From positions 1-41,069 of the IMG/VR virus record IMGVR_UViG_2737471864_000010: a stretch of DNA of 41,069 bases, one strand, 5' to 3'. The first letter of the stretch is position 1; every line of letters starts with the position of its first letter. Shown here piece after piece: positions 934 to 38,485 of the stretch. Made by a program: the position numbers and the translations under genes. The notes under the pieces were generated by a model that was not told the DNA's origin, ran no database searches, and saw only the letters and a list, made by a program, of their open reading frames with translations. Origin of the DNA: a virus. Lineage: Duplodnaviria; Heunggongvirae; Uroviricota; Caudoviricetes.

Positions 934-985
934 ATGGCGAGGGTTTAAGCAATCGAGCGGCAGCGTACTTACCCCGCACTCCATT

Positions 986-1005
986 AGCGGGTATACTCAT
1001 GCCGC
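986..1005 (+). promoter_or_regulatory. Candidate argW promoter -10 element (TATACT) just upstream of the tRNA 5' end
   Basis: TATACT hexamer about 12 nt upstream of the mature tRNA start; no clear -35 identified. Confidence 0.3.
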
Positions 1006-1008
1006 ATT

Positions 1009-1083
1009 GTCCTCTTAGTTAAATGGATATAACGAGCCCCTCCTAAGGGCTAATTGCAGGTTCGATTCCTGCAGGGGACACCA
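1009..1083 (+). tRNA. argW: tRNA-Arg, anticodon CCU
   Basis: 75-nt sequence GTCCTCTTAGTTAAATGGATATAACGAGCCCCTCCTAAGGGCTAATTGCAGGTTCGATTCCTGCAGGGGACACCA with cloverleaf-compatible stems, anticodon loop CTCCTAA, T-loop GGTTCGATTCC and encoded CCA. Confidence 0.9.
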
Positions 1084-1244
1084 TTTATCAGTTCGCTCCC
1101 ATCCGTACCAGTCCGCAAAACCCCCTGAATATCAAGCCTTCTGTAGATGCACAGTTCGTAATGGTTCGCGTCAGATCGTTGACAGCCGCACTCCATGACG
1201 GGTAAAAAGTGGATAAAATAATTTTACCCACCGGATTTTTACCC

Positions 1245-24856: not shown

Positions 24857-25344
24857 AAACAGACTTCACGCTCAATCTCACGACGAGTCATCAGGCCTTT
24901 CCATTGCTTACCGCCAGCGTATGTCCAGCGACGTAGCTGGTCACATGCGCCTTTGATATCGCCCTGGTTTATTTTGCGAAGAAGCGTCGATGTTCTGAAA
25001 TTGCCAGCACCCACGTTGTAGACGAACGAGTAAAGAGCGCCGCGCGTTGTTTCCGGTATATCAACTTTTATGTACGGGTTAATTTGTCTGGCGACCGTGG
25101 CAAGGTCTTTATTCAGGAGGGCTTTGCATTCTGCTTCGGTATACGTTTTACCGAGCATAATGTCTTTTCCGGTGTGTCCGTGACATACAGTCCATACACC
25201 AACGATATCTTTGTATGGTATGTAGCTGACACCTTCCAAACCATCGTTACCACTTGGTCCAGTGATTAACACAGATGCTATAGCAATAGCCCCGCCACTT
25301 ATCGCCGCTATTACGCTATTTCGTAGTGCCGGTGACATTGCCAT
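24841..25344 (-). CDS. SAR endolysin (T4-lysozyme-type muramidase with N-terminal signal-arrest-release domain)
   Basis: 167 aa; Gly/Ala-rich weakly hydrophobic N-terminus followed by an E-x8-D-x5-T catalytic arrangement (…[24 protein letters not shown]…). Confidence 0.85.
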
Positions 25345-25519
25345 TCAATCTGTCCTCGCGCTCTTTGCGCTTGTAGTACCAGTTGATGCCAAATGTGCCG
25401 ACAGTACAAAGAATACCAATGATGACAGCCCAGTCATTCAGGGAGAGAATGCCACCCATCGCAGTCAGTCCTCCGAAGCTGTAACTGAACCATTCTCTGA
25501 TTTTGTCCATACGGTACAT
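25316..25519 (-). CDS. Holin (pinholin-like, two transmembrane segments) with dual-start motif
   Basis: 67 aa beginning MYRMDK (two Met codons separated by Tyr-Arg); two hydrophobic segments; immediately upstream of the SAR endolysin. Confidence 0.7.
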
Positions 25520-25860
25520 GCTCTACCCCTTCATTGAGGGGATTTGCTCTATTTAATTAGGAATAAGGTCGATTACTGATAGAACAAATCCAGGCTACTG
25601 TGTTTAGTAATCAGATTTGTTCGTGACCGATATGCACGGGCAAAACGGCAGGAGGTTGTTAGCGCAGCCTCTTGCCACCCGCTTTCACGAAGATCATGTG
25701 TAGAAGGCCGCAGCATAACTATCACTGATGAATTCAGGATAGCCAGTGGCTACGGCTCAGTTTGGGTTGTGCTGTTGCTGGGCGGCGATGACGCCTGTAC
25801 GCATTTGGTGATCCGGTTCTGCTTCCGGCATTCGCTTAATTCAGCACAACGGAAAGAGCA

Positions 25861-26330
25861 TTTATGGCTCGCATCGCGGGAAAAAGCCCACGGTAGAGAG
25901 TCGAACTCTACAAATACTCTTACCTGTTGTGCGCTCCGTTTCGTGGAGCTAACGGCGACGCTAGTACCGGTCTATGCGTCGCACCCTTGAGGGATTTACT
26001 AAGGCGACATGCCCGTTGTTACCCACTCAATTGGACCCTCCCCGTCGCCATCTGGGTCTAGTCAGGAATCGAACCTGCCGAGGGTACATTTGAATGGGTG
26101 CCCATTATTAATCACACCGGGCCAGTGCGCCGAATTTGGTAGCGGGGAGTCGGAAGACCCCGTGATTTTGGTTTCTTAGGCCGCCATCAACATCAAATCA
26201 TCGTTTGCATTTATCTTTGTGGTCAGTTTCTAAAAACCCGCAAAGTCGACAACTCTGACGAAAACTATCGTTGTGCTGCCACAACGATAAGAGCACTCGG
26301 TGCATTTAAGCCAAGCCCCATAAGGGAGAA
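25861..26330. other. Structured non-coding segment of about 470 bp between tR' and the holin, with a tRNA-like T-arm motif and terminator-like hairpins; appears inserted relative to the lambda arrangement I recall
   Basis: No ORF of 60 aa or more; contains GGCAGGTTCGATTCCTGAC on the minus strand, a 10-bp perfect inverted repeat TATCGTTGTG/CACAACGATA, and copies of CTCTTACCTGTT at about 25917 and 26333. Confidence 0.4.
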
Positions 26331-26352
26331 TGCTCTTACCTGTTACACAGAT

Positions 26353-26412
26353 ATAAAAAATCCCGAAACCGTTATGCAGGCTCTAACTATTACCTGCGAA
26401 CTGTTTCGGGAT
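26353..26412 (-). terminator. tR'-like terminator of the short late-leader (6S-type) transcript
   Basis: Long hairpin CCCGAAAC…GTTTCGGG followed by TTTTTT on the minus strand; matches lambda tR' as recalled. Confidence 0.7.
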
Positions 26413-26543
26413 TGCATTTTACAGACCTCTCAGCCTGCGATGGTTGGAGTTCCAGACGATACGTCGAAGTGACCAACTAGGCGGAATCGGTAGTAAGCGC
26501 CGCCTCTTTTTATCTCACTACCACAACGAGCGAATTAACCCAT

Positions 26544-27035
26544 CTATCCCATACTGGAGAATTCACCATGATATTTTATCCTGGCATTTTCCATTGCCTT
26601 TCTCGCCTCCTCGATATCGTCAAAACACCCTACATGAATCCTTTTACCATTGACCCTAATTCTTCCAACCCACTTGTTTGCAGCAGAATTAAAAGTCACC
26701 CCCTTCACACCAGATGAATTGTTTTTCCTCATCTTGCTGTTCCATGAGTTTTGAGTGTTAGTAACAACACGAAGATTGGCTATCCGGTTATCAGATCTAT
26801 CACCATTAATATGGTCAATCACATCGGTTGGCCAATCATTGTAAACCATCAGCCATGCAATTCTATGGACATATAGCCGCATTCCATAAAGTTTTACCTG
26901 CAGATATCCATTTGTTTTATAGCCAACAACAGCGCCATAGATAAATCTAGATGACCGAGGTGGATTCTTCCATGTAAGAATTCCAGTATCTGGATTGTAA
27001 TTAAAAAGTCTCAATGCATCTTCACGTTTTAACAT
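26544..27035 (-). CDS. HNH homing endonuclease with AP2-like domain (paralog 2 of 3), located inside the pR'-tR' leader
   Basis: 163 aa; NYNPDTG, HRIAW, DHINGDRSDNRIANLR, GVKGV…KYHGEF. Confidence 0.75.
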   Translation of the reverse strand: MLKREDALRLFNYNPDTGILTWKNPPRSSRFIYGAVVGYKTNGYLQVKLYGMRLYVHRIAWLMVYNDWPTDVIDHINGDRSDNRIANLRVVTNTQNSWNSKMRKNNSSGVKGVTFNSAANKWVGRIRVNGKRIHVGCFDDIEEARKAMENARIKYHGEFSSMG

Positions 27036-27235
27036 AGGCGAACCACATAGATATTAGAGCCTGCTGACATAGAAATATCACCACGAGAGAAGTCGCCAAA
27101 AGCGATATTTCTCAGGCTCTATTCCTATGTGCTCTCGAGTTTATGATGCGCATGTCAGTGCGCTTAGAACTTAAAGATGAGGTGGGTAAAAACTGAAAGA
27201 ATGTGAACGGATATAAATCTGCCATTCTTGGGTCA

Positions 27236-27264
27236 AATTTACCCAACTTTATTCAAAAAGTCAA
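27236..27264 (-). promoter_or_regulatory. Late promoter pR' (-35 TTGACT, 17-bp spacer, -10 TAAATT) with the start of the Q-utilisation region
   Basis: Minus strand TTGACTTTTTGAATAAAGTTGGGTAAATTTGAC…, near-identical to lambda pR' as recalled, about 40 bp downstream of Q. Confidence 0.7.
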
Positions 27265-27306
27265 TATTATGCCGTTAATATGTTGCCATCCGTGGCAATC
27301 ATGCAG

Positions 27307-27930
27307 CTAACGTGTGACCGCATTCAAAATGTTGTCTGCGATTGACTCTTCTTTGTGGCATTGCACCACCAGAGCATCATACAGCGGCTTAACAGTGCGT
27401 GACCAGGTGGGTTGAGTAAGGTTTGGGATTAGCATCGTTACAGCGCGATATGCGGCGCTTGCTGGCATTCTTGAATAGCCGACACCTTTGCATCTTCCGC
27501 ACTCTTTCTCAACAACTCTCCCCCACTGCTCTGTTTTGGCTATATCAACCGCACGGCCTGTACCGTGGCAATCTCTGCATCTTGCGCCCGGCGTCGCGGC
27601 ACTACGGCAATAATCCGCATAAGCGAATGTTGCGAGCACTTGCAGTACCTTTGCCTTAGTATTTCCTTCAAGCTTTGCCACGCCACGGTATTTCCCCGAT
27701 ACCTTGTGTGCAAATTGCATCAGATAGTTGATAGCCTTTTGTTTGTCATTCTGGCTGAGTTCATGCTTACCGCAGAATGCAGCCATTCCGAATCCGGCTT
27801 GTGATTGCGCCATCCCCATAGCAGCCATCACATCAGTACCGGAAAGAGAGTCAGAAGCCGTGGCCCGTGGTGAGTCGCTCATCATCGGGCTTTTTGGCGA
27901 ATGAAATTTAGCTACGCTTTCGAGTCTCAT
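27307..27930 (-). CDS. Q: Late-gene antiterminator Q (lambda Q type)
   Basis: 207 aa MRLESVAKFHSPKSPMMSDSPRATASDSLSGTDVMAAMGMAQSQAGFGMAAF…, which I recognise as essentially lambda Q. Confidence 0.9.
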   Translation of the reverse strand: MRLESVAKFHSPKSPMMSDSPRATASDSLSGTDVMAAMGMAQSQAGFGMAAFCGKHELSQNDKQKAINYLMQFAHKVSGKYRGVAKLEGNTKAKVLQVLATFAYADYCRSAATPGARCRDCHGTGRAVDIAKTEQWGRVVEKECGRCKGVGYSRMPASAAYRAVTMLIPNLTQPTWSRTVKPLYDALVVQCHKEESIADNILNAVTR

Positions 27931-28475
27931 CGTCTTCCCTTTTTGCCTGGCGTTACCATCAGGACGCCGTTAACTATTACGTGACGCTCGCCTTTGCTGT
28001 CTCGGTTGTACTTGAGCACTGTTCCTCTTGCGCAGGAAAGCATCCTCGCCACTTCGCTCTGATTGCCTCGTGTCTGGATAAGAAGCTCTGGTATCGTTTG
28101 AATTGTGGCGTTCATACGTTCTCCAGGTTCGGTGATTTTTATTCCAAGCCTTCCGCCTGGTACTTTCACACCACGAATTACGCGAATGTCATCGAATTGC
28201 TCGTCGTCTTCCGCAAATCCGGCGTGGATAAGGGAGTCGAGTAAACCTTTCAGGATGTTGTCGAGGTCGCGGCGGCGGGAGTCTGGAACGTCTGCAATGA
28301 CTTTGATGCGGAGTCGTGATTTGGTGAAAATGTCTAACTTGAGTTGCCGGATTATTTGCTGTACGTCTTTTCGGTATTTCTGGCCTTTATCGCTTATGTA
28401 ATATTGGCTTCCCCGTCTTCGCCAGTAGGTATTCAGCGACGGTGGGTACGGAAGTGTGAATCTGTATTCTGCCAT
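27927..28475 (-). CDS. rusA: Holliday-junction resolvase RusA fused in frame to a NinH-like helix-turn-helix domain
   Basis: 182 aa; first ~120 aa show RusA motifs (LPYPPSLNTYW, DVPDSRRRDLDNILKGLLDSL); last ~60 aa (MNATIQTIPELL…GNQSEVARMLSCARGTVLKY…) resemble lambda NinH. Confidence 0.7.
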   Translation of the reverse strand: MAEYRFTLPYPPSLNTYWRRRGSQYYISDKGQKYRKDVQQIIRQLKLDIFTKSRLRIKVIADVPDSRRRDLDNILKGLLDSLIHAGFAEDDEQFDDIRVIRGVKVPGGRLGIKITEPGERMNATIQTIPELLIQTRGNQSEVARMLSCARGTVLKYNRDSKGERHVIVNGVLMVTPGKKGRR

Positions 28476-29000
28476 TTATCCTCTCCCATGATTATGGTGA
28501 TACCCCAATCGTGATTCCGCCAATTTTCTGGCATTAACGGCTAGAGATATGTCATCGTATAATCCAAGAAATATCTTTTTATTATCACTGTTTATATATG
28601 CGCCCCACTTTTTATTCTTCTTATAGTAGGCAACACCCATTACTCCAGAGCGATTATTAATAGGCTTTTTTCTGTTCCTTGAGTTCTGTTTATCATCTAC
28701 AACGCGCAAATTGCATATTCTGTTATCGCTTTTAATTCCATTTATGTGGTCAATTTCCCCATCAGGTTCGCTTCCATAAAATGATATCCATGCGATTCTA
28801 TGAGCTCGACAAACTTTTTTATTTACAGATATACGAACGTATCCTTTTTCATCTATAGAACCAGCAATCTTACCGGCATATGTTGAATTCCAGCACTCTC
28901 TTACACTTTCTCTTCTTTTGTATATAAACAAACCTGTTTCGCTATTATATTCATACAATTCATTGATTTCTTTTTGTGTTGGATATCTTTTACCGTTCAT
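28476..29000 (-). CDS. HNH homing endonuclease with AP2-like domain (paralog 3 of 3)
   Basis: 174 aa; EYNSETG, HRIAW, DHINGIKSDNRICNLR, GVMGV; strongly AT-rich; start and stop abut the neighbouring genes. Confidence 0.75.
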   Translation of the reverse strand: MNGKRYPTQKEINELYEYNSETGLFIYKRRESVRECWNSTYAGKIAGSIDEKGYVRISVNKKVCRAHRIAWISFYGSEPDGEIDHINGIKSDNRICNLRVVDDKQNSRNRKKPINNRSGVMGVAYYKKNKKWGAYINSDNKKIFLGLYDDISLAVNARKLAESRLGYHHNHGRG

Positions 29001-29287
29001 GGCTTAATCTTCCCCTCCTTCAGCAATACCGCCTGCGTCCTGATTACGCCTTCGAGGTGGTAAAGTCTGGCGTCTTTGTTGTCGAGGTTATGGGTGCGTC
29101 GGTCGATCTCCGCGTGGCAGTCACTACAAGCCCATGCGCCGATCAGGTCGTCAGGCTTCATTCCCGTTCCGCAAATTCCAGCCATCCGGTAATGTGCCAG
29201 AACTGTAGTTTCAGGATTGCCATTGCATACGCCGTAAATACGTACCTGGCATTCTCTGCCGCGCGCTTCTTTGCGTAGGTTAGCCAT
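28997..29287 (-). CDS. ybcO: YbcO-like DUF1364 protein (putative Zn-binding nuclease)
   Basis: 96 aa MANLRKEARGRECQVRIYGVCNGNPETTVLAHY…CSDCHAEIDRR…, matching DLP12 YbcO as recalled. Confidence 0.7.
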   Translation of the reverse strand: MANLRKEARGRECQVRIYGVCNGNPETTVLAHYRMAGICGTGMKPDDLIGAWACSDCHAEIDRRTHNLDNKDARLYHLEGVIRTQAVLLKEGKIKP

Positions 29288-29556
29288 TATGGTTCACTCC
29301 AGTAATTCTCAATTGCAGCAGCCATTCTCTGCATCCACTCAGCCAGCTTTAACGCGGCTTCTCTTTCAGAACCACACTTAGGGAAATCCTTCATTTCCAT
29401 GCTGGCCTTATATGTTCTGAATGCCAGGTCTCCGGTAATAATCAACTCCTGATCAAGCACCGAGCGTTTATTCCGGTGTTGAACGTAATAGACAGATTCA
29501 GTCCGCATTTCTTCTCTGTCTTTTTTGAAGGAAATAAGCTCAGAGAAATCACTCAT
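29287..29556 (-). CDS. Hypothetical nin-region protein
   Basis: 89-aa ORF; stop overlaps the ybcO start; no family recognised. Confidence 0.45.
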   Translation of the reverse strand: MSDFSELISFKKDREEMRTESVYYVQHRNKRSVLDQELIITGDLAFRTYKASMEMKDFPKCGSEREAALKLAEWMQRMAAAIENYWSEP

Positions 29557-29719
29557 CGTTTTCTTCCTCGTACATTGAACTATTCGGATCGCTCATCAGT
29601 TCTGCGCAGCAATCTGAGCACACGTGAACTTCCAGCACATGCAGCTTCTGACCGCAGTTAGCGCACGTTAAAGCCCGCTCGACGCTTTCTTGTTCGTAAC
29701 TTCGATTTGGGTCAATCAC
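29549..29719 (-). CDS. ninD: NinD-like zinc-ribbon protein (GTG start, below track cutoff)
   Basis: Hand-called 56 aa …[33 protein letters not shown]… resembling lambda NinD; GAGGA site upstream; coordinates set by overlap with neighbours. Confidence 0.55.
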
Positions 29720-29898
29720 CTTGTTTTCCTCGCACGTTCTCTAAGCCACCGGATATCCCACAGGTGAGCCGTGTAGTTGAAGGTTTTTACGTCAGATTCT
29801 TTTGGGATTGGCTTGCGTTTATTTCTGGAGCGTTTCGTTGGAAGGTATTTGCAGTTTTCGCAGATTATGTCGGTGATGCTTCGTCGCTGTCGTCTCAT
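29716..29898 (-). CDS. ninE: NinE
   Basis: Track ORF 29716..29943 trimmed to the ATG that overlaps the ninB stop; [52 protein letters not shown]… matches lambda NinE as recalled. Confidence 0.7.
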
Positions 29899-30317
29899 TC
29901 GTACCTCCTGTCGGTAAATCTGACACCCTGACCAATAGCCCATGCTGTCGTGTACTCAATCAGGCTTGCCATGCGCTTCACGCTCATCTGCGCGCTACTT
30001 TCGCGAATGTTGACGTATTCGCCTTCAAGCCCGGGCAAAACATCAGCTTCCTGCTTTGTTGCCACTGCATGACCGCTTATCAACAAAACCTTCCATTGTT
30101 CTGGTTTTAACCATTTGCCGCACCATTGAACCTGACTTGCGATATCCGCCAGCATCGCGTGAAATTTTGCGTTCTGGTCAAGGTTGCGCTTGTAGTCAGT
30201 AATGCGGATGGTAACTGGCTTGTCTTTATCGAGTGGTGTTGCGAGGATGGCGGTGATTGCGGCTTGCTGTTGTTGCTTACTCCTGAGGAAAATTGTCTGT
30301 TTCATGGAATTCCTCAA
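29895..30317 (-). CDS. ninB: NinB/Orf-family recombination mediator
   Basis: 140 aa with the NinB-type central block …[32 protein letters not shown]…. Confidence 0.7.
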
Positions 30318-30526
30318 TATGTGTAAAGGCTATATCCGTTTTTATTTGTCCTGGTGCCATAGCCATATAGGCTCCAGTCATCCTGTTTTCTCTCACCAAA
30401 AATATGCTTGCGGTATTCTTCCTGCTGGCGTCTCCATATTTCCATCATGTCTGGCTGGTTCTTTTCTCGCATTTTTCGAATCTGCTCAAGGATGAACTCT
30501 ATTTGCTGCTGATTTGTCATGCTCAC
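30314..30526 (-). CDS. Hypothetical protein
   Basis: 70-aa ORF translationally coupled to ninB. Confidence 0.4.
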   Translation of the reverse strand: MSMTNQQQIEFILEQIRKMREKNQPDMMEIWRRQQEEYRKHIFGERKQDDWSLYGYGTRTNKNGYSLYTY

Positions 30527-30530
30527 TCCT

Positions 30531-30746
30531 TTACTTTAAATCCAGACTCCGAATAATTCTGTTGCGCTGAAACTCATTGTTGAGTTTGGACAACCGTCGA
30601 AGAACACGGTCACGCGGATAGCGTCGTGCAGCAGGTGAATGCTCATACAACTCATCAATCGGCAAACTGGACGATGAACGATACCGATACCAACGCACCA
30701 ACTCTTCACGAAAATTAGCCCTGACAAGCTCAGCTATCGTACTCAT
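30531..30746 (-). CDS. Hypothetical protein
   Basis: 71-aa ORF with a GGAGG ribosome-binding site. Confidence 0.4.
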   Translation of the reverse strand: MSTIAELVRANFREELVRWYRYRSSSSLPIDELYEHSPAARRYPRDRVLRRLSKLNNEFQRNRIIRSLDLK

Positions 30747-30775
30747 TTCTTAAAGCCTCCAATTCCCTCTCCCCC

Positions 30776-30806
30776 AAATAAAAAGGCCTGCGATTACCAG
30801 CAGGCC
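30776..30806 (-). terminator. Intrinsic terminator downstream of the primase-helicase gene (tR2-like position)
   Basis: Minus strand GGCCTGC-TGGTAATC-GCAGGCC followed by TTTTTATTT. Confidence 0.55.
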
Positions 30807-30836
30807 TGTTATTAGCTCAGTGATGTAGATGGTCAT

Positions 30837-32717
30837 TTAATACTCCGTCACGTTTTCCTGTCGCCACGCCTCGTCATATTCCGATTTCGGCATATTGGCG
30901 ATGTAGCTATATGGCGATCCTGATTCAAGTTGCAGGAACTGGTGCGATTGCTCGTCAAGGAACAACGGGACACCACCCTCCCAACCTTCGCCGTTACGTT
31001 GTTTTTCAAGCATCAAAACAGATGCCGGAGATGCCAGTAGCTGTTCGTCCTTCTCTGACATCTTTTCACCACTCTGAACTCTCTGTAACGCTCTCTCGCG
31101 AGCCTTGTTACGCCAGATGATGAAAAGGTTGTCTGTCAGGTCTGTTATCGCTCCAGAGCCTTTTACGTCCATTTTCCCGGTTGGTTTTTCTTCGCTGTCT
31201 CCTTTTCGCGAGTGAGTAACGAGAATGACGTGGGAGTTTGTTTTGTTTTTGAAGTCGCAAATCGAGTCAACAAACGCCTTCTGCCCGTTATAGTCATCGT
31301 CGCCTATGCCACATTTCATCAGGCTGTCGATGATGAATAACTGGATCCCGTATCGGCGGCGAGCGTAGTCGAATATTTCGATCAGCCTGTCGGCTTTCGC
31401 CGTTCCGGTCAGGCCAAACACCCAAAGTCTTTCGTCATAAAATTTAAATGCAGAGTCAATTTCCAGCACTGGCGGCATCTTGCAGCACGTCGCCTGACGG
31501 GTAAGTCGCTTAAGGAGAATGCCTGGCTTCAGCTCAAGTGACGCGATGCACGTCTTCACACCCTGACGCATTGCCTCAAGTGCCATATGCCCGACAACCT
31601 CCGTTTTTCCGTGACCGTTCACACCATTGACCAGCGTCAACTCTGCCTCACGGAACTGGAATTTATCTGCCAGAGATTCCCACGGTGGATTAAACAGATA
31701 CTGCTGCTTGCCGTAGAAAGCGTTGATAGTGTCCTGGTAAAACTCTCGCGCACTGTAGAGTTCTTCAGGATCGAAGTAGGATGCCGTGCCGATGTACTGC
31801 CAGATTTCATCCTCGGTAACACCGTTCATCAGGCATTCGTTGATGTCTTTGTACGGCAGAGTAACAAGACGGCAACGATGTTCACCGAGTCGGCTTGCGA
31901 TTTCCCTTGCGGCTTCACGACCAACATCATCAACATCCATCGAGATGAATATTTCCTCAAACCTGTCGAGGTTGTGATACTCAAACTCAATCCACTGTTG
32001 CTTAGCGCCTTTCCCGCCACCAAACGGCACGGATAACGCCGAGATGCCGTATTGCGCATAGCTCATACAATCAATTTCGCCTTCGCAAAGTACAACCGCC
32101 CTCACGCCAGCGTCCAGAGCCTGCCATCCGAACAGACAAGGTTCGCAATCACCTTCTGCCATAATGACTTTCTTCCCGTCCGGGCGCTCAGTGCTGATTC
32201 GCTTGACCTGCAACAACTCACCATCGCGTTTGTACGGAAGCACCAGAGCATCCAGTTCCCGCTCTCCATTCCACACCTTGCCGCTGACAACCTCGTAGCG
32301 CTTTACGATTTCTGGCGATATGCCACGCGATTGCAGGTACTCAAGATGGGATTCTGTTCTGGTAACGTAGCGGGAGATTTTCTTGCGATCAGGTCTGGAG
32401 AATTTCTTCTCACGTTTGGCATCGAAATGGTGATCGTCATCCTTGATACCGAGAAATGCTTTCGCTTCCTGCATAGCCTGATGCAGGTTAATTCCTCGAC
32501 ATGCCATCCACAAATCAAGCATGTCACCGCCGTCTCCCTCAGCGAAATCAGCCCATTTTTTCTTGCCGCTAAGGTTGACCTTAAGGCTGTTTCCCTTGTC
32601 ACCGTTGACGTTACCGGCAACCCACTCATGCCCCTCTTTCTTGCCGTTTGGCAACAGGTGCGGAGCCACCCTGTCAACCTGCGCCCAAAGCAGGTCGCTG
32701 AGTTCACTTGGCCTCAT
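30837..32717 (-). CDS. Bifunctional DNA primase-helicase (Toprim primase domain plus SF4 DnaB/gp4-like helicase domain)
   Basis: 626 aa; central acidic Toprim-like region (…VVLCEGEIDCMSYAQ…DVDDVGREAA…); Walker A GVNGHGKT and Walker B-like LFIIDSL in the C-terminal half. Confidence 0.8.
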   Translation of the reverse strand: MRPSELSDLLWAQVDRVAPHLLPNGKKEGHEWVAGNVNGDKGNSLKVNLSGKKKWADFAEGDGGDMLDLWMACRGINLHQAMQEAKAFLGIKDDDHHFDAKREKKFSRPDRKKISRYVTRTESHLEYLQSRGISPEIVKRYEVVSGKVWNGERELDALVLPYKRDGELLQVKRISTERPDGKKVIMAEGDCEPCLFGWQALDAGVRAVVLCEGEIDCMSYAQYGISALSVPFGGGKGAKQQWIEFEYHNLDRFEEIFISMDVDDVGREAAREIASRLGEHRCRLVTLPYKDINECLMNGVTEDEIWQYIGTASYFDPEELYSAREFYQDTINAFYGKQQYLFNPPWESLADKFQFREAELTLVNGVNGHGKTEVVGHMALEAMRQGVKTCIASLELKPGILLKRLTRQATCCKMPPVLEIDSAFKFYDERLWVFGLTGTAKADRLIEIFDYARRRYGIQLFIIDSLMKCGIGDDDYNGQKAFVDSICDFKNKTNSHVILVTHSRKGDSEEKPTGKMDVKGSGAITDLTDNLFIIWRNKARERALQRVQSGEKMSEKDEQLLASPASVLMLEKQRNGEGWEGGVPLFLDEQSHQFLQLESGSPYSYIANMPKSEYDEAWRQENVTEY

Positions 32718-32824
32718 GATTCCCTCAGATTGAGATTTTTAAACCAGAAATCGACAAACGAAATACTTAACCAGCCGTGGTTATAACCAGCGACCAGTAG
32801 CGATTTGATTTTTGATTTCATGGT

Positions 32825-33685
32825 TCACCTGTCGAAAAACACGTAGCCAGTTTTCGATACGGTGATTGCGGATGATGGTTTGGATTGTGGTTGAATGGTT
32901 TCTGGCTTTTCGTCGTTCCAGCGCTGACCGTTCAGGTAGCTCGATGGTAACAACCTGTCGAATCCGAACTGCTTACCATTCCTGCATGCGATGTCTTCTG
33001 CCAGCATCGTGGCAAACTCTCTTGCCGTACCCCTGGTAGTTTTACGCCATTCCCTGAACTGTGTTCTGAATGCCGAAGCTGCGTTTTTCTTCCCGGCTTT
33101 CCGCATGCCTGCACACCAGAATATTTCCTCGAATGCCTTGTCGGTTTCTTCGTGACGGTCAGATGATTTTTCACACTCCGTCCGAACACTTTCGGACATA
33201 GTGTTTTTATTATTTCTTTTTTCTTTTGTAATAGTTTCTTTTGTGTGTCCCTGTTTTGGTGACAGCGCTGTCACCGTTTTGGTGACACTTTTTGTCACCA
33301 ATGCAGTGACATTATCACCAGAGTAGTGACACCCTTCGATTTGCCATTCTTCGATGTTCTTGTTAGGCCCGATTTGCTGGCCTTCGCGAAGGATAACCTT
33401 CATCGCGATAAGCTCATTCTTGGCCTTGTTTACCTTCTGTCTTGGCAGCCTGGTAATTTGAGCTAACTGACTATCAGAGATGCGATCCATCTTTTTACCG
33501 TAGCCGTATGTTTTACGGCATATGGCGTGGGCAACCTTGCTCTGATTTTTCGTTAAATCTGCGCCGATAAGCTCTTCATACAGGGCATTTGCAAGACGGG
33601 TATAACCATCTTCAACTTCTGCCACACGACGCTCCACAGGCCGTTGTGAAGGCCTTAAATGTGTTACGGTTGCAAGATTACTCAT
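32825..33685 (-). CDS. Replication initiator with lambda O-like N-terminal origin-binding domain
   Basis: 286 aa; N-terminus …[56 protein letters not shown]… parallels lambda O; iteron-like repeats lie inside the coding sequence. Confidence 0.75.
33258..33334. repeat. Origin-like iteron array inside the initiator gene, followed by an AT-rich tract
   Basis: Reiterated GGTGACA/TGTCACC-type inverted repeats at roughly 20-bp spacing; AT-rich run at about 33205-33250 on the side toward the initiator C-terminus. Confidence 0.65.
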
Positions 33686-33856
33686 GACCTTTCTCCTTCT
33701 GCATCAGCTTCACTTTTTCCAACTCAGCCCGGAATCGACCAGGCTGCTTGAAGCTGGACAGGAAGCGATCACGTAGTATGTGTTTGTGAATTTTGTCCTG
33801 GTAAGGACTGAGTTGTTTTGTCATAATTACTCCCGTGGATTGATCCAGTAATTCCC

Positions 33857-34153
33857 TCAGAATTGCATATCAATTTGCTTAAAATCCTCGGTGGCGGCCG
33901 GGGATTTTTTCTTTGTGAGTCCATCAAGCGCATACTTAAAAGCCCTGCTAATCGGACTGATGTCTGATGCCATTCCGAAAGCACACAAGACCGAAGCAAT
34001 AAATCTCCAGTCCGTTCTGCTTATCTTCGATTCATGACAGCCAATCATCTTTGCCAGACCGCGCTGGGTAAGCGTTGACAGGTTGATGAGTAAATCAGTT
34101 TCAGCGCGATCAATTTCTCGCTGTGTTGGCTTGCTGTAACTTGTTTGTGTCAT
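33857..34153 (-). CDS. cII: CII-like transcriptional activator
   Basis: 98 aa; helix-turn-helix [15 protein letters not shown] and C-terminal [18 protein letters not shown] parallel lambda CII. Confidence 0.7.
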
Positions 34154-34274
34154 TTCTTACTATCTCCATAGGTAAATAATTTGGGTTTTTATCGTGCACC
34201 ATTGACAGTCATCCTTGACCACGCCGGGCACCCGACCGTATACCGGGCCGTTCGGTACTAAAAGTACATTTTTA

Positions 34275-34505
34275 TTACATAACAAACTGCTGTTTACCGA
34301 TACGGCGAATCTGTGCTGCTGAGTACTTGCCGCCTGATGCCTTGGCGATCTTATCCGCATATTCGGTTTCACCAGTGAACTCGGTACGCGGCAGAGAACC
34401 ACGCTCAAGCCACTTATAGATGGCTTTTGGCGTAAGTCCACAAACATCAGCCACAACAGAAACTCGAACGGATTTGATAACTTCTCCAAACGTAACTTCG
34501 TTCAT
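34275..34505 (-). CDS. cro: Cro-like helix-turn-helix repressor
   Basis: 76 aa, divergent from cI, AGGAGA site 6 nt upstream; helix-turn-helix VADVCGLTPKAIYKWLERG. Confidence 0.6.
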   Translation of the reverse strand: MNEVTFGEVIKSVRVSVVADVCGLTPKAIYKWLERGSLPRTEFTGETEYADKIAKASGGKYSAAQIRRIGKQQFVM

Positions 34506-34520
34506 GCTTCTCTCCTGCGG

Positions 34521-34592
34521 TGAACTTATGGTTCATATTATGACGGAACTGATAGTACAGTCAATACCTAATATAGTTGAACTTATGGTTCA
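34521..34592. promoter_or_regulatory. Immunity control region: two copies of a 15-bp operator palindrome TGAACTTATGGTTCA, PR for cro, and PRM-like promoter for cI
   Basis: Operator copies at about 34521-34535 and 34578-34592; minus-strand PR -35 TTGACT and -10 ATAATA with a 17-bp spacer; plus-strand TAATAT 10 nt before the cI ATG. Confidence 0.6.
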
Positions 34593-35292
34593 ACAGAAAG
34601 AGCGTGAAACTTTCTCGCAGAGGCTTGCGCTGGCCTGTGATAAAGCGGGATTACCTTTGCATGGTAGGCAGGCTGATTTAGCTGTCAGGCTTAAGGTCAC
34701 ACCAAAAGCCATTAGTAAATGGTTCAACGGGGAGTCAATACCAAGAAAAGACAAGATGGAATCTCTGGCTTCGGTGCTGGGAACTACTGCTGCATATCTG
34801 CATGGCTATGCTGATGATGACGGTATCACGGTAAATCATCTATCAAGATCAAATGATTATTATCGTGTTGATGTATTGGATGTTCAGGCGAGCGCCGGGC
34901 CAGGAACCATGGTTTCCAATGAATTTATAGAAAAGATAAGAGCAATTGAATATACGACCGAGCAGGCAAGAATTTTATTTAATGGAAGGCCACAGGAAAG
35001 CGTAAAAGTCATCACGGTTCGCGGTGACAGCATGGAGGGAACCATCAATCCGGGAGATGAGATCTTTGTTGATGTATCCATAACCTGTTTTGATGGCGAT
35101 GGCATTTATGTGTTTGTATACGGGAAAACAATGCACGTTAAGCGCCTGCAAATGCAAAAGAACAGGCTTGCCGTCATCTCTGACAATGCCGCTTATGATC
35201 GATGGTACATAGAAGAAGGTGAAGAAGAGCAACTTCACATTCTAGCCAAAGTCCTCATTAGGCAGTCAATCGATTACAAGCGATTCGGATAA
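34585..35292 (+). CDS. cI: CI-type prophage repressor (N-terminal helix-turn-helix, C-terminal S24 LexA-like autopeptidase domain)
   Basis: Track ORF 34420..35292 trimmed to the ATG at 34585 because the longer form overlaps cro and the promoter; helix-turn-helix QADLAVRLKVTPKAISKWFNG; S24 Ser motif VRGDSMEG and Lys in GKTMHVKRLQ. Confidence 0.85.
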   Translation: MVQQKERETFSQRLALACDKAGLPLHGRQADLAVRLKVTPKAISKWFNGESIPRKDKMESLASVLGTTAAYLHGYADDDGITVNHLSRSNDYYRVDVLDVQASAGPGTMVSNEFIEKIRAIEYTTEQARILFNGRPQESVKVITVRGDSMEGTINPGDEIFVDVSITCFDGDGIYVFVYGKTMHVKRLQMQKNRLAVISDNAAYDRWYIEEGEEEQLHILAKVLIRQSIDYKRFG

Positions 35293-35307
35293 AAATAAAT
35301 TTCCTTA

Positions 35308-35342
35308 AAGTTCACTAACTTATGATGTAGTGAGCTTTTTAT
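35308..35342 (+). terminator. Candidate intrinsic terminator just downstream of cI
   Basis: 10-bp stem AAGTTCACTA/TAGTGAGCTT with a 10-nt loop, followed by TTTTTATA. Confidence 0.4.
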
Positions 35343-35644
35343 ACCCATAAAATGTACTATTGGTACTTTACATTAATGAACTTTAAGTACATCATAAGCC
35401 CATAGACGAACGGCGCGTCTTTAAACCATGCGTCGGGAGCGCGGCGGGTTCAGGATGAACGGCAATGCTGCTCATTAGCGAGAAGGCTTTTTTGCTTTTA
35501 GTCACAAAAAGCAAAGCAGCTTTTTGATATAGAAGTCGTTCGAAAAAATAGAAGTATTTATTGCAAAGATTCAAACCCATTAGGAAACAAAATACATGCA
35601 GTCCAAAAAATAAAATTGTACAGTAAACTACCGTACGGTGCTTA

Positions 35645-35989
35645 TTGGGTATGCTTATGGTGAAAAAGACTATTTATGTTAATCCTGACAGCGGACAAAA
35701 CAGAAAAGTATCTGATAGAGGTCTTACATCTCGAGACAGGAGGAGAATAGCGAGATGGGAAAAAAGGATAGCATATGCATTAAAAAACGGTGTAACACCT
35801 GGATTTAATGCTATAGATGACGGTCCTGAATATAAGATTAATGAAGAACCAATGGACAAAGTTGACAAAGCATTAGCAACACCATTTCCTCGCGATGTCG
35901 AAAAAATTGAAGATGAAAAATATGAGGATGTAATGCACAGAGTTGTTAATCACGCTCACCAACGAAATCCAAATAAAAAATGGTCATAG
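35645..35989 (+). CDS. Candidate N-like transcription antiterminator (arginine-rich motif protein); true start uncertain
   Basis: First gene of the early-left operon; arginine-rich segment TSRDRRRIARWEKRIAYA; followed immediately by a strong intrinsic terminator and more same-strand genes. No sequence match to known N proteins recognised. Confidence 0.35.
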   Translation: MGMLMVKKTIYVNPDSGQNRKVSDRGLTSRDRRRIARWEKRIAYALKNGVTPGFNAIDDGPEYKINEEPMDKVDKALATPFPRDVEKIEDEKYEDVMHRVVNHAHQRNPNKKWS

Positions 35990-36012
35990 CCCACTTCGGT
36001 GGGTTTTTTTGT
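35990..36012 (+). terminator. Intrinsic terminator (tL1-like) immediately after the N-like gene
   Basis: CCCAC-TTCG-GTGGG followed by TTTTTTTG. Confidence 0.8.
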
Positions 36013-36193
36013 TGTCTGAACAAACCTAATTTACTACCGCAAGCCACGCAGTGAAATGGGCGTGACTTGTGTTGGTCGCCAGAAAATGAAATTAGGCAGC
36101 AAACCACTTATTTGAGGTGATATATGGAAGAAGAATTTGAAGAGTTCGAAGAGCATCCGCAGGATGTGATGGAACAATACCAGGACTATCCGT

Positions 36194-36394
36194 ATGACTA
36201 CGACTATTGATAAGAATCAATGGTGTGGACAATTCAAACGATGCAATGGATGCAAGCTGCAATCGGAATGCATGGTTAAGCCTGAAGAAATGTTTCCTGT
36301 AATGGAAGATGGGAAATATGTCGATAAATGGGCAATACGAACGACGGCAATGATTGCCAGAGAACTTGGTAAACAGAATAACAAGGCTGCCTGA
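36194..36394 (+). CDS. ral: Ral-like restriction-alleviation protein
   Basis: 66 aa MTTTIDKNQWCGQFKRCNGCKLQSECMV…, at the position lambda carries ral; identity is from memory and not verified. Confidence 0.5.
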   Translation: MTTTIDKNQWCGQFKRCNGCKLQSECMVKPEEMFPVMEDGKYVDKWAIRTTAMIARELGKQNNKAA

Positions 36395-36528
36395 TGGTAG
36401 CCTTTATTTTTGGCATAAACAACAGAATAAACACTGCACTGTGTATTCATTCCAACGAGTGAATACACGGAGCAATGTCGCTCGTAACTAAACAGGAGCC
36501 GACTTGTTCTGATTATTGGAAATCTTCT

Positions 36529-36558
36529 TTGCCCTCTAATGTGAGGGCAATTTTTTTG
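36529..36558 (+). terminator. Intrinsic terminator within the early-left operon (tL2-like)
   Basis: TTGCCCTC-TAATGTG-GAGGGCAA followed by TTTTTTT, 12 bp before the next gene's ribosome-binding site. Confidence 0.8.
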
Positions 36559-36569
36559 ACGGAGGAATT

Positions 36570-36986
36570 ATGGAAATTACAGATATTCTGGTTAATCCAG
36601 ATAATTACGACCAATTCAATATCTCTACTCAATCAGTTGATTTGGGATGTGCAACTGTCAGCGCATGGCTACTTAATGGTAAACAGTTGGATAAATGCCT
36701 TGATGCACATATGACGGTTAACAACTTCCTTGCAGAAAAAACACACTGGCAAGATGCTGGAGGGAAATATGCTGGATGGCTTGAAAGCATGGGGTTTGAA
36801 TATCAATCTGATGAAGGTTGGTGGAGCCTTATAGCTGTAACGCCTGAGACAATAGAATGCTTCGTTAAATACTCAAACGACGATGACTATAAAAACCAGG
36901 TAGATTCTGCGATAGAAAGATATAAAAGAAAATCATTCAGCCACGAAATATCATCAGTTCTTGATTTCATAGAAGTCTTCAAATAA
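36570..36986 (+). CDS. Hypothetical early protein
   Basis: 138-aa acidic ORF with a GGAGG site; no family recognised. Confidence 0.45.
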   Translation: MEITDILVNPDNYDQFNISTQSVDLGCATVSAWLLNGKQLDKCLDAHMTVNNFLAEKTHWQDAGGKYAGWLESMGFEYQSDEGWWSLIAVTPETIECFVKYSNDDDYKNQVDSAIERYKRKSFSHEISSVLDFIEVFK

Positions 36987-37069
36987 GCCGCCAAGCGCGG
37001 CTTTACCGCATACCAATAACGCTTCACTCGAGGCGTTTTCGTTATGCAATCAAACAGAAGGAGCATCCT

Positions 37070-37240
37070 ATGCAACAGTTCGCTATTGCAGGGGCGGCAT
37101 CGGTTCGCCCTTTCAACCCGATTTTATCGGTACAGCATTCACGAAAAAATATTTTAACCGGAGCAGACTTTAAACAACCAAGAATGAAAAGTTTGCTCGA
37201 AAAGCTTTGGGATATTTTGAAACAACAAGGCCGTCCATGA
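37070..37240 (+). CDS. cIII: CIII-like protein (below track cutoff; frame and start uncertain)
   Basis: Hand-read C-terminal portion …AIAGAASVRPFNPILSV…SLLEKLWDILKQQGRP resembles lambda CIII; my reading of the 5' end disagreed with the track frame by one base. Confidence 0.4.
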   Translation: MQQFAIAGAASVRPFNPILSVQHSRKNILTGADFKQPRMKSLLEKLWDILKQQGRP

Positions 37241-37407
37241 GTTTTACCAATAACTGGTCAGACGAAGAATTCATTCGTCAGATGAAAGATTTAATCGGTA
37301 ACGAAGGAGATATTCATGTCACTTGCAACCACAGTGAAGGAGAGCAAGTTACAGAGACGCATGTACACGCAGCAGGCGTTAATGTATCGCCAGAAGGGAG
37401 ATCGTGA
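37237..37407 (+). CDS. Small hypothetical early protein
   Basis: Track ORF 37207..37407 (TTG start) trimmed to the ATG that overlaps the preceding stop; 56 aa. Confidence 0.35.
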   Translation: MSFTNNWSDEEFIRQMKDLIGNEGDIHVTCNHSEGEQVTETHVHAAGVNVSPEGRS

Positions 37408-37496
37408 AGGTGTTCGCGTCTTTTTAAATGCGGCAAAGACCGAAGTATTAAATCAGCGTTATTTCCTTGGTCCATGTCCATTCTGAGAACAATCAT

Positions 37497-38102
37497 ATGA
37501 GCAAAGAATTTTACGCAAGACTGGCAGCTATTCAGGAAAATCTGAACGCGCCCAAGAATCAGTACAACTCATTCGGTAAATATAAATACAGAAGCTGCGA
37601 AGACATTCTTGAAGGCGTTAAGCCGTTACTGAATGGTCTGTTTTTATCAATCAGCGATGAAGTTGTGTTGATTGGTGATCGGTATTACGTGAAAGCCACG
37701 GCAACTATTACCGATGGCGAAAACAGTCATACGGCAACCGCTCTTGCACGAGAGGAAGAAAGCAAGAAAGGAATGGATTCTGCACAAGTTACGGGAGCTA
37801 CAAGCTCTTATGCACGCAAGTATTGCCTCAATGGTTTGTTCGGCATTGATGATGCGAAAGATGCAGATACAGACGAGCATAAACATCAGCAGAACGCAGC
37901 AGCAAAGCAATCAAAACCATCACCTACACCTGAACAGGTTCTAAAAGCATTCACTGACGCAGCATTGCAGAAAAACACCGTAGAAGAGCTTAAACAGGCG
38001 TTCGCCAAAGCGTGGAAGATGCTCGAAGGCACACCGGAGCAGCACAAAGCGCAGGACGTTTACAACATCAGACGAGACGAATTAGAAGGAGCGGCTGCTT
38101 AA
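37497..38102 (+). CDS. erf: ERF-family single-strand annealing protein
   Basis: Track ORF trimmed to ATG; MSKEFYARLAAIQENLNAPKNQYNSFGKYKYRSCEDILEGVKPLL… closely matches P22 Erf as recalled. Confidence 0.85.
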   Translation: MSKEFYARLAAIQENLNAPKNQYNSFGKYKYRSCEDILEGVKPLLNGLFLSISDEVVLIGDRYYVKATATITDGENSHTATALAREEESKKGMDSAQVTGATSSYARKYCLNGLFGIDDAKDADTDEHKHQQNAAAKQSKPSPTPEQVLKAFTDAALQKNTVEELKQAFAKAWKMLEGTPEQHKAQDVYNIRRDELEGAAA

Positions 38103-38485
38103 TGGCACATTCGATTACTGTAAGACTAAACAAGCCCGCAAGAGAGTTTCAGGCCGGGGAAAATATCGGATTCAACATCCGTGCTGGCGTTCAGTATTAC
38201 GATCGCCAGACAAAAAAGAAAGAATGGACAAACTACAGCGCCGTTGTATTTGCCAAGCCTGGAGCGCAAGCGGATTACTACCGTAGTGTTCTTGTTGAAG
38301 GTGGCATTGTGGAAATTACCGGAGAAAACATCAGGGTTGATGTTTATCAGGGGCAAAATGGTCAATCAATCACTCTTGAATTACTGAATGCAAAGATTGG
38401 ATTTGCAACTTCAGGAAACAGCCAACAGCAACAAAGTAGCAATCATCAAAATCATCCTGAATACGACGATTCAATTCCCTTCTAA
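38102..38485 (+). CDS. Phage single-stranded-DNA-binding protein (OB-fold, acidic C-terminal tail)
   Basis: Track ORF 38012..38485 trimmed to the ATG overlapping the erf stop; 127 aa ending …EYDDSIPF, which mimics the SSB C-terminal DDDIPF tail. Confidence 0.6.
   Translation: MAHSITVRLNKPAREFQAGENIGFNIRAGVQYYDRQTKKKEWTNYSAVVFAKPGAQADYYRSVLVEGGIVEITGENIRVDVYQGQNGQSITLELLNAKIGFATSGNSQQQQSSNHQNHPEYDDSIPF

What the first reader, a model, noticed from the sequence alone, without database searches (positions are those of the whole stretch)
27927..28475. In-frame fusion of RusA resolvase with a NinH-like DNA-binding domain
The 182-aa ORF has a RusA-like first ~120 residues and continues without a stop into a ~60-residue segment beginning MNATIQTIPELL… that resembles lambda NinH. 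In related phages these are separate adjacent genes. This could be a real fusion protein, a sequencing frameshift, or loss of a stop codon.
Basis: seen in the sequence. Interest (0 to 1): 0.45.

Follow-up and report, generated by a model that had tools for sequence, protein, structure and literature searches.

The report
One-base frameshift fuses rusA to ninH
Two well-known neighbouring phage genes, the RusA DNA-junction cutter and the small NinH DNA-binding protein, read as one 182-residue protein here only because this sequence carries one extra C just before their normal overlap; it is a one-off lesion of one bacterial isolate, not a new kind of protein.

Summary
Window 27927-28475 (minus strand) is one 182-aa ORF with a complete RusA domain (aa 1-116) followed by a complete NinH (aa 121-182).

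The cause is a single extra C (GAACTGG to GAACCTGG, window 28126/28127), 10 nt upstream of the usual ATGA rusA-stop/ninH-start overlap. It shifts rusA into the ninH frame. The TGA is still present but out of frame, so this is a frameshift, not a lost stop codon.

The lesion is private:
- The mutant junction is absent from 488 complete E. coli genome records, 35 phage records, and the viral, species-representative and metagenome collections.
- The exact fused protein occurs on one contig among about 15 billion proteins. That contig is 100% identical to the window, so it is the same sample.
- The same DNA allele without the C exists in other isolates. The two halves occur as separate proteins on 515 and 43 contigs.
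- A search of 1.84 billion representative proteins found no conserved RusA-NinH fusion family.

The rest of the window has no other unanimous uncompensated indel. A real recent mutation in a prophage (about 0.7) is therefore more likely than a sequencing error (about 0.22), but only the reads can decide. The finding is ordinary and of low interest.

The parts
27927..28475 (-). Fused ORF rusA::ninH, 182 aa (ATG 28475-28473, TGA 27929-27927)
   Evidence: ORF list; Pfam RusA plus Phage_NinH, both above curated cutoffs
28128..28475 (-). RusA part, aa 1-116, identical to the first 116 residues of the free-standing 120-aa RusA of E. coli MS1718
   Evidence: Translations. Ungapped alignment of aa 3-119 to E. 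coli RusA 1Q8R, E 1.6e-25, with D70, D72, K76 and D91 retained. AF2 pLDDT block means 77-92.
28126..28127 (-). Site of the single-base insertion: CC on the coding strand (GG on +) where all relatives have one C. It creates a CCTGG (Dcm) site.
   Evidence: Alignments A1, A2, A4. 138 of 138 related loci have a single C. No 100% match of the junction in 488 E. coli records or 35 phage records.
28116..28127 (-). Four frameshifted codons, aa 117-120 (PGER replaces LENV/LENA), forming the linker. They contain the ninH Shine-Dalgarno GGAG (28121-28124).
   Evidence: Sequence and translations. AF2 pLDDT below 50 for residues 119-126.
28112..28115 (-). Ancestral ATGA overlap: ninH ATG (28115-28113) and former rusA stop TGA (28114-28112), now out of frame for rusA
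   Evidence: Sequence; annotation of relatives shows rus ending 4 nt after the ninH start
27927..28115 (-). Complete ninH (62 aa plus stop), aa 121-182 of the fusion. It still has its own SD and ATG.
   Evidence: Pfam Phage_NinH, profile 1-59 of 60. Exactly this 62-aa sequence is a free-standing 'protein ninH' on 43 contigs.
27307..27930 (-). Downstream gene Q (antiterminator, 207 aa); its ATG overlaps the ninH stop (ATGA)
   Evidence: Pfam Antiterm, 1.3e-57; ORF list
28476..29000 (-). Upstream HNH endonuclease ORF (174 aa) between ybcO and rusA; its TAA stop abuts the rusA ATG
   Evidence: Pfam HNH_3. Same layout in E. coli MS1718 and F1005 and in L134 and L137.

Best explanation
The ORF is the ordinary rusA-ninH gene pair of a P22-like (Lederbergvirus-type) lambdoid prophage of E. 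coli, integrated beside tRNA-Arg(CCU). One extra C in the last codons of rusA, 10 nt before the ninH ATG, moves rusA translation into the ninH reading frame. Ribosomes that start at rusA now read ...IKITE-PGER-MNATIQ... and end at the ninH stop. The product is RusA residues 1-116 (all catalytic residues present), a 4-residue frameshifted linker, and the whole of NinH, a Fis-like helix-turn-helix DNA-binding and bending protein.

The wild-type ninH frame is open for 24 codons upstream of its ATG. Any net +1 insertion in the last 72 nt of rusA therefore produces such a fusion, so occasional fusions are expected.

ninH keeps its own GGAG Shine-Dalgarno and ATG, so free NinH can probably still be made by internal initiation (inferred). 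RusA can be made only as the fusion.

The lesion is private to one sample and shows no sign of being conserved or selected. It is most likely a genuine, recent, neutral or mildly harmful mutation in a non-essential nin-region gene of a resident prophage (inferred).

Shown here: the lesion, its uniqueness, the intact domains, and the existence of the wild-type allele. Inferred: that the C is in the DNA rather than an error, that the fusion is expressed, and that both domains stay active.
For: - **Lesion.** Alignments to CUS-3, HK620 and HK629, to the closest complete genomes MS1718 and F1005 with the same ybcO-HNH-rusA layout, and to L130 and L137 show a single indel: the extra C.
- **Wild-type allele exists.** L130 (GCA_002227115.1) is identical to the window from about rusA codon 12 through ninH into Q, apart from that C.
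- **Private.** The exact 182-aa protein is on 1 Logan contig (SRR2239590) among about 15 billion proteins, and that contig is 100% identical to window 25033-38475.
- **Mutant junction absent elsewhere.** The pattern gave 0 hits in viral, species-representative genome and metagenome contigs. The wild-type pattern gave at least 120 in viral contigs. No 100% match in 488 E. coli complete-genome records or 35 phage records.
- **Halves are normally separate.** The 62-aa NinH is on 43 contigs and the 120-aa RusA on 515 contigs.
- **No conserved fusion family** among 1.84 billion representatives. The few hits spanning both parts are singletons with different lesions or noisy sequence.
- **Clean sequence.** Over about 21.8 kb covered by at least 3 relatives, this is the only uncompensated non-3n indel on which all relatives agree.
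- **Relaxed selection is plausible.** The sister prophage L137 (99.85% identical over 1981 nt) has an independent rusA nonsense mutation, Y25*.
- **Recent event.** The 7 rusA differences from MS1718 in A2 lie at third-codon positions, and RusA residues 1-116 are identical in the two sequences, so all are synonymous.
- **Domains intact.**. The AF2 model shows two folded parts joined by a low-confidence linker at residues 119-126.
- **N-terminal fusion tolerated.** N-terminal His- and GST-tagged NinH still dimerise or bind DNA (PMC7166090).
Against: - No reads were available, so a base-calling or assembly error at the CC dinucleotide cannot be excluded.
- The two 100%-identical assemblies (window and Logan contig) may derive from the same reads and would then share a systematic error.
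- Expression and activity of the fusion are untested.
- 120 of the 138 comparison loci were retrieved with the wild-type pattern itself, so only the other 18 loci plus searches are unbiased.
Confidence: 0.7

Rival explanations
1. Sequencing or assembly artefact: the isolate's DNA has the normal single C and separate rusA and ninH genes, and the extra C is a consensus error.
For: The lesion is a one-base length change in a short homopolymer, the classic error type. It is seen in only one sample. The database contains other evident artefactual read-throughs of this locus: P0173 is a noisy RusA-NinH-Q read-through and P0145 is a chimera.
Against: A Logan assembly of SRR2239590 carries the same C and is 100% identical to the window over 13,443 nt. 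The window shows no other private uncompensated indel over about 21.8 kb of comparably covered sequence, including longer homopolymers. That is not what an indel-prone platform produces. A CC dinucleotide is a poor substrate for homopolymer errors (general knowledge).
Confidence: 0.22
2. A genuine, selected bifunctional protein: a Holliday-junction resolvase tethered to a Fis-like DNA bender, maintained because the fusion benefits the phage. This would be a 'Rosetta-stone' sign that RusA and NinH work together.
For: Both domains are complete, with key residues kept. Both partners are homodimers: NinH per PMC7166090, RusA from established knowledge. N-terminal tags on NinH are tolerated. The AF2 model gives two folded domains with a flexible linker. 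The genes are always adjacent and overlap by ATGA in relatives, which suggests translational coupling (inference).
Against: There is no second occurrence anywhere and no conserved fusion family in 1.84 billion representatives. An identical allele without the C circulates. The linker is simply frameshifted rusA sequence. Other fusions at this locus have different lesions and are singletons. NinH homologues are free-standing proteins of about 62 aa.
Confidence: 0.04
3. The mutation hard-wires a fusion that wild-type phages already make at low level by -1 ribosomal slippage on the A-run (AUA AAA AUC) near the end of rusA.
For: In the wild type, the ninH frame (-1 relative to rusA) is open for 24 codons upstream of the ATG. 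An A5 run lies 18 nt upstream of the overlap.
Against: There is no canonical X XXY YYZ heptamer in the rusA frame and no downstream stimulatory structure was sought or seen. A 24-codon open stretch is unremarkable. No experimental or comparative support was found. This is pure inference.
Confidence: 0.02

Closest known systems
RusA Holliday-junction resolvase of lambdoid phages and prophages (E. coli DLP12 RusA, PDB 1Q8R/2H8C; phage HK620/CUS-3/HK97 gp67 'rus')
   Same: Residues 1-116 are a full RusA domain. Pfam PF05866 scores 59.2 bits. The alignment to 1Q8R is ungapped. D70, D72, K76 and D91 are conserved. Residues 1-116 are identical to the free-standing RusA of E. coli MS1718. The gene sits in the same nin-region position, upstream of ninH and Q.
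   Different: The last four residues (LENV/LENA) are replaced by PGER, and the chain continues for 62 more residues (NinH) instead of stopping at 120 aa.
NinH, the Fis-like nucleoid-associated-protein mimic of phage lambda (PMC7166090); HK620/HK97 gp68-type NinH
   Same: Residues 121-182 are identical to a free-standing 62-aa NinH found on 43 contigs. Pfam PF06322 scores 76.4 bits. N18, R30, T32, K35 and H45 of lambda NinH are conserved (direct reading).
   Different: Here it is also translated as the C-terminal part of RusA. Position 34 is L rather than R, and the C-terminal tail differs from lambda. Both features are shared with the normal HK620-type alleles and are not caused by the fusion.
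Sporadic frameshift or deletion read-throughs at the same locus in public data (P0001, P0002, P0027, P0120, P0173)
   Same: Each is a one-off joining of adjacent overlapping nin-region genes by an indel. P0001 is also a RusA::NinH fusion by frameshift into the ninH frame.
   Different: The lesions differ: P0001 shifts about 11 codons earlier, P0002 is an in-frame deletion, P0027 is a larger deletion, P0120 joins NinH to Q, and P0173 is noisy sequence. None shares the extra C.

Membership tests
RusA family (Pfam PF05866, crossover junction endodeoxyribonuclease) | Profile match above the curated threshold over the whole domain | tested here: met
   59.2 bits against a cutoff of 22.8; aa 9-114 match profile positions 1-123 of 124
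RusA family (Pfam PF05866, crossover junction endodeoxyribonuclease) | Catalytic acidic residues D70, D72, D91 and K76 (E. coli RusA numbering; identity of these residues from established literature, recalled) | tested here: met
   Ungapped alignment of aa 3-119 to 1Q8R places D70, D72, K76 and D91 of the window protein at the same positions
RusA family (Pfam PF05866, crossover junction endodeoxyribonuclease) | Stand-alone protein of about 120 aa with its native C-terminus | tested here: not met
   The last 4 residues are replaced and 62 residues are appended because of the +1 C
RusA family (Pfam PF05866, crossover junction endodeoxyribonuclease) | Homodimeric, Mg2+-dependent cleavage of Holliday junctions | not testable with these tools
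   Needs biochemistry or complementation of ruv mutants
NinH family (Pfam PF06322, Fis-like phage DNA-binding protein) | Profile match above the curated threshold over the whole protein | tested here: met
   76.4 bits against a cutoff of 29.8; aa 121-179 match profile positions 1-59 of 60
NinH family (Pfam PF06322, Fis-like phage DNA-binding protein) | HTH DNA-contact residues N18, R30, T32, R34, K35 and dimerisation residues H45, H55, R56 of lambda NinH (PMC7166090) | tested here: inconclusive
   N18, R30, T32, K35 and H45 are present. Position 34 is L and positions 55/56 are T/P. The same or similar deviations occur in the common free-standing HK620-type NinH.
NinH family (Pfam PF06322, Fis-like phage DNA-binding protein) | Small free-standing protein (about 60-70 aa) encoded just upstream of Q | tested here: not met
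   The position upstream of Q is kept and its own SD and ATG are retained, but the reading frame is continuous with rusA. Homologues are free-standing.
Conserved RusA-NinH fusion architecture (hypothetical family) | Recurrence of the fused architecture in independent lineages | tested here: not met
   0 hits for the mutant junction in three collections. None in 488 E. coli plus 35 phage records. Only singletons with different lesions among 5.8 billion clusters and 1.84 billion representatives.

The most novel reading that the evidence does not exclude
The extra C is real, and the RusA::NinH protein is expressed and active in both halves. The Fis-like bender would then be physically tethered to the resolvase dimer and would change where or how junctions are cut. 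This would hint that the always-adjacent, overlapping RusA and NinH also cooperate in wild-type lambdoid phages, which would give NinH a recombination role.
Probability: 0.05. Interest if true: 0.45.

Novelty: already known. Interest (0 to 1): 0.1.

Why it matters
Its main value is as a caution. Overlapping phage genes (ATGA junctions) are one indel away from an apparent domain fusion, and single-genome fusions should not be read as new architectures or as Rosetta-stone evidence of interaction. Annotation pipelines would label this ORF a 182-aa 'RusA family' protein or a pseudogene. The correct description is rusA and ninH joined by a +1 frameshift. If the C is real, the allele is a ready-made natural construct for asking whether RusA tolerates a C-terminal DNA-binding extension. 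Nothing suggests biological significance beyond that.

Tried and rejected
- **Stop-codon loss.** Rejected: the ATGA with its TGA is intact.
- **Recombination or mosaic joint creating the fusion.** Rejected: the sequence on both sides of the C is identical to L130, and a mosaic breakpoint exists only at the 5' end of rusA.
- **Conserved fusion family.** Searched with the full protein in the 5.8-billion-cluster database, with the NinH part, with HMMER over 1.84 billion representatives, and with DNA patterns in three collections. Only singletons with other lesions or noisy sequences were found.
- **Generally noisy assembly.** Rejected: no other unanimous uncompensated indel.
- **Programmed -1 frameshifting in the wild type.** Considered; there is no canonical slippery heptamer and no supporting evidence, so it is kept only as a 2% rival.
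- **Literature search 'NinH' + 'RusA'** returned mostly irrelevant hits. The NinH/Fis paper does not mention RusA fusions.
- **The P0001 cluster of 60 members** looked at first like a fusion family, but its listed members besides P0001 and the window's own protein are ordinary 120-aa RusA or fragments.
- **Structure comparison (fold search)** was not run. The AF2 model simply shows the two known domains.

Full report
**Observation.** The ORF list shows a 182-aa ATG-to-TGA ORF at 27927..28475 on the minus strand. Pfam finds RusA (PF05866, aa 9-114, 59.2 bits, cutoff 22.8) and Phage_NinH (PF06322, aa 121-179, 76.4 bits, cutoff 29.8, profile 1-59 of 60). The RusA part aligns without gaps, residues 3-119, to the crystallised E. 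coli RusA (1Q8R, E 1.6e-25). D70, D72, K76 and D91 are in place; that these are the catalytic residues is established knowledge, recalled.

**Context.** The window is a mosaic P22-like (Lederbergvirus-type) prophage of E. coli.
- At the left end are a formate/nitrite-transporter-family host gene, tRNA-Arg(CCU) at 1009-1083, an integrase, and a tailspike.
- Around the finding, on the minus strand, the order is ninB, ninE, ninF, an 89-aa ORF, ybcO (28997-29287), an HNH endonuclease (28476-29000), rusA::ninH, Q (27307-27930), and an HNH-AP2 endonuclease (26544-27035).

**What the lesion is.** In phages CUS-3, HK620 and HK629, rus (363 nt, 120 aa) and ninH (189-195 nt) are separate genes overlapping by ATGA. 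The same holds in the closest complete E. coli genomes, MS1718 and F1005, which share the ybcO-HNH-rusA layout.
- Alignments show exactly one indel. The window reads ...ATCACCGAACCTGGAGAACGTATGAAC..., where every relative reads ...ATCACCGAACTGGAGAACG(T/C)ATGAAC....
- The extra C (window 28126/28127) lies 10 nt upstream of the ninH ATG (28115-28113). It shifts rusA into the ninH frame.
- RusA residues 117-120 change from LENV to PGER, and translation runs through the ninH ATG to the ninH stop.
- The old TGA (28114-28112) is still there but out of frame, so this is a frameshift, not a stop-codon loss.
- ninH retains its own GGAG (28124-28121) five nt before the ATG, so independent initiation of NinH remains possible (inference).
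- In the wild type, the ninH frame is open for 24 codons upstream of its ATG. Any net +1 insertion in the last 72 nt of rusA gives a fusion.

**How widespread it is.**
- The exact 182-aa protein is on record once among about 15 billion proteins, on Logan contig SRR2239590_205. That contig is 100.000% identical to window 25033-38475 (13,443 nt), so it is the same sample.
- The mutant junction pattern gave 0 hits in IMG/VR viral contigs, in one genome per species of GTDB, and in JGI metagenome contigs.
- A 71-nt query centred on the junction found 488 records in 5,426 complete E. coli genomes and 35 phage records. None matched at 100%; the best were 70 of 71, which is the gap itself.
- The two halves are common as separate proteins. 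The exact 62-aa NinH is on 43 contigs, and the 120-aa RusA with identical first 116 residues is on 515 contigs.

**The wild-type counterpart exists.** Contigs encoding the exact NinH allele include two informative loci.
- L130 (GCA_002227115.1) is identical to the window from about rusA codon 12 through ninH into Q, except for the extra C.
- L137 (GCA_002226905.1) has the same ybcO-HNH-rusA-ninH-Q-HNH/AP2 layout and is 99.85% identical over 1981 nt. It lacks the C but carries its own rusA nonsense mutation (TAT to TAA, Y25*).
- Independent inactivation of rusA in a sister prophage fits relaxed selection on this gene in lysogens. The nin region is dispensable in lambda (the nin5 deletion; established knowledge).
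- The seven rusA differences from MS1718 in alignment A2 lie at third-codon positions, and RusA residues 1-116 are identical in the two sequences, so all seven are synonymous. The gene was under purifying selection until recently.

**Is there a conserved RusA-NinH fusion family? No.**
- In the 5.8-billion-cluster search, only P0001 (181 aa), P0002 (171 aa) and P0027 (138 aa) carry both domains. Each is on one contig and each has a different lesion: a frameshift about 11 codons earlier, an in-frame deletion, and a larger deletion.
- The 60-member P0001 cluster otherwise lists ordinary 120-aa RusA proteins and fragments.
- HMMER against 1.84 billion representatives found no further genuine fusion. 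P0173 is a noisy RusA-NinH-Q read-through, P0145 is a chimera, and P0174 is a Rha-like N-terminus joined to NinH.
- NinH homologues are free-standing proteins of about 62 aa.

**Real mutation or error?** Reads were not available.

For a real mutation:
- The Logan assembly carries the same C.
- Across about 21.8 kb of the window covered by at least 3 relatives at 93% identity or more, the 28126/7 insertion is the only uncompensated non-3n indel on which all relatives agree (138 of 138). The others are compensated pairs, intergenic, or supported by only some relatives.
- 120 of those 138 loci were retrieved with the wild-type pattern. The unbiased support is the other 18 loci.
- An indel-prone platform would be expected to leave more such lesions.

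For an artefact:
- It is a one-base homopolymer-length change seen in one sample.
- Both assemblies may rest on the same reads.

I put a real private mutation at about 0.7 and an artefact at about 0.22.

**Likely consequence if real.**
- An AlphaFold2 model (mean pLDDT 76.5) shows a confident RusA domain (block means 77-92 up to residue 110). The junction has low confidence (below 50 for residues 119-126). The NinH part is moderately confident (65-72) with helices at 128-135 and 139-146, which corresponds to the HTH region.
- Lambda NinH is a Fis-like homodimer that binds and bends DNA. Its HTH is N-terminal and its dimerisation determinants are C-terminal. N-terminal His- and GST-tagged versions remain active, and overexpression is toxic through DNA binding (PMC7166090).
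- RusA is also a homodimer (established knowledge).
- A bifunctional dimer is therefore plausible but untested, and nothing indicates that it is selected.

**Verdict.** These are known genes in their known arrangement, joined by a private +1 frameshift. Interest is low. The useful lesson is that ATGA-overlapping phage genes readily produce spurious 'domain fusions'.

Noticed in passing
window 28476-29000 (-), and the rusA 5' end at 28440-28475: An HNH endonuclease ORF (174 aa) sits between ybcO and rusA, and its TAA abuts the rusA ATG. Phages without it (CUS-3, HK620, HK629) have ybcO/hkbD overlapping rus directly and a different RusA N-terminus (MNEYQFVLPYPPSV versus MAEYRFTLPYPPSL here). A mosaic or homing breakpoint therefore lies within roughly the first 35 nt of rusA. 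The same insertion occurs in E. coli MS1718 and F1005 and in L134 and L137.
   Followed up: partly
window 26544-27035 (-): A second HNH endonuclease, with an AP2 DNA-binding domain (163 aa), lies between Q and the lysis genes. HK629, L005 and L137 have an HNH (or HNH-AP2) gene at the same position. This looks like a recurrent homing-endonuclease insertion site in the late-operon leader.
   Followed up: no
L137 5642-6004 (GCA_002226905.1, NLII01000015.1): A sister prophage, 99.85% identical over Q-ninH-rusA-HNH-ybcO, has an independent premature stop in rusA (codon 25, TAT to TAA). No rusA gene was called there. This suggests rusA decays repeatedly in this prophage lineage.
   Followed up: partly
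window 27927-27960 (-), the ninH 3' end: Six substitutions cluster within 20 nt at the ninH/Q overlap, giving the tail VTPGKKGRR instead of the commoner VKQGKRGRR. Both tails are common natural alleles; this one is on 43 contigs.
   Followed up: partly
window 2524-4359 (-): The tailspike has a P22-type head-binding domain followed by a GDSL lipase/esterase domain rather than a typical endoglycosidase. It may be an O-antigen deacetylase-type receptor-modifying tailspike.
   Followed up: no
window 1-2402: The prophage is integrated beside tRNA-Arg(CCU) (1009-1083) and a formate/nitrite-transporter-family host gene (1-933). The integrase is at 1209-2402. Phage phiv205-1 annotates attL at the equivalent spot.
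   Followed up: partly
window 28123-28127: The inserted C creates a CCTGG motif, which is a Dcm methylation site, where relatives have ACTGG. This is probably a coincidence.
   Followed up: no
L130 565-2958 (GCA_002227115.1): A 797-aa DnaB-type helicase in a related prophage has a faint LAGLIDADG hit between two DnaB_C hits. This suggests an intein inside the phage helicase.
   Followed up: no
window 15376/15384, 16549/16553, 29613/29618, 34168/34172: These are pairs of nearby +1/-1 indels relative to some relatives: compensated frameshifts or local alignment alternatives in variable segments. None is unanimous among relatives.
   Followed up: partly
proteins P0173, P0145, P0120, P0003, P0009 (public protein collection): The rusA-ninH-Q overlap region yields many one-off read-through or chimeric 'proteins' in public data: a RusA-NinH-Q noisy read-through, a NinH-Q fusion, and RusA extended in the third frame. 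This shows how often indels at ATGA overlaps create spurious architectures.
   Followed up: partly
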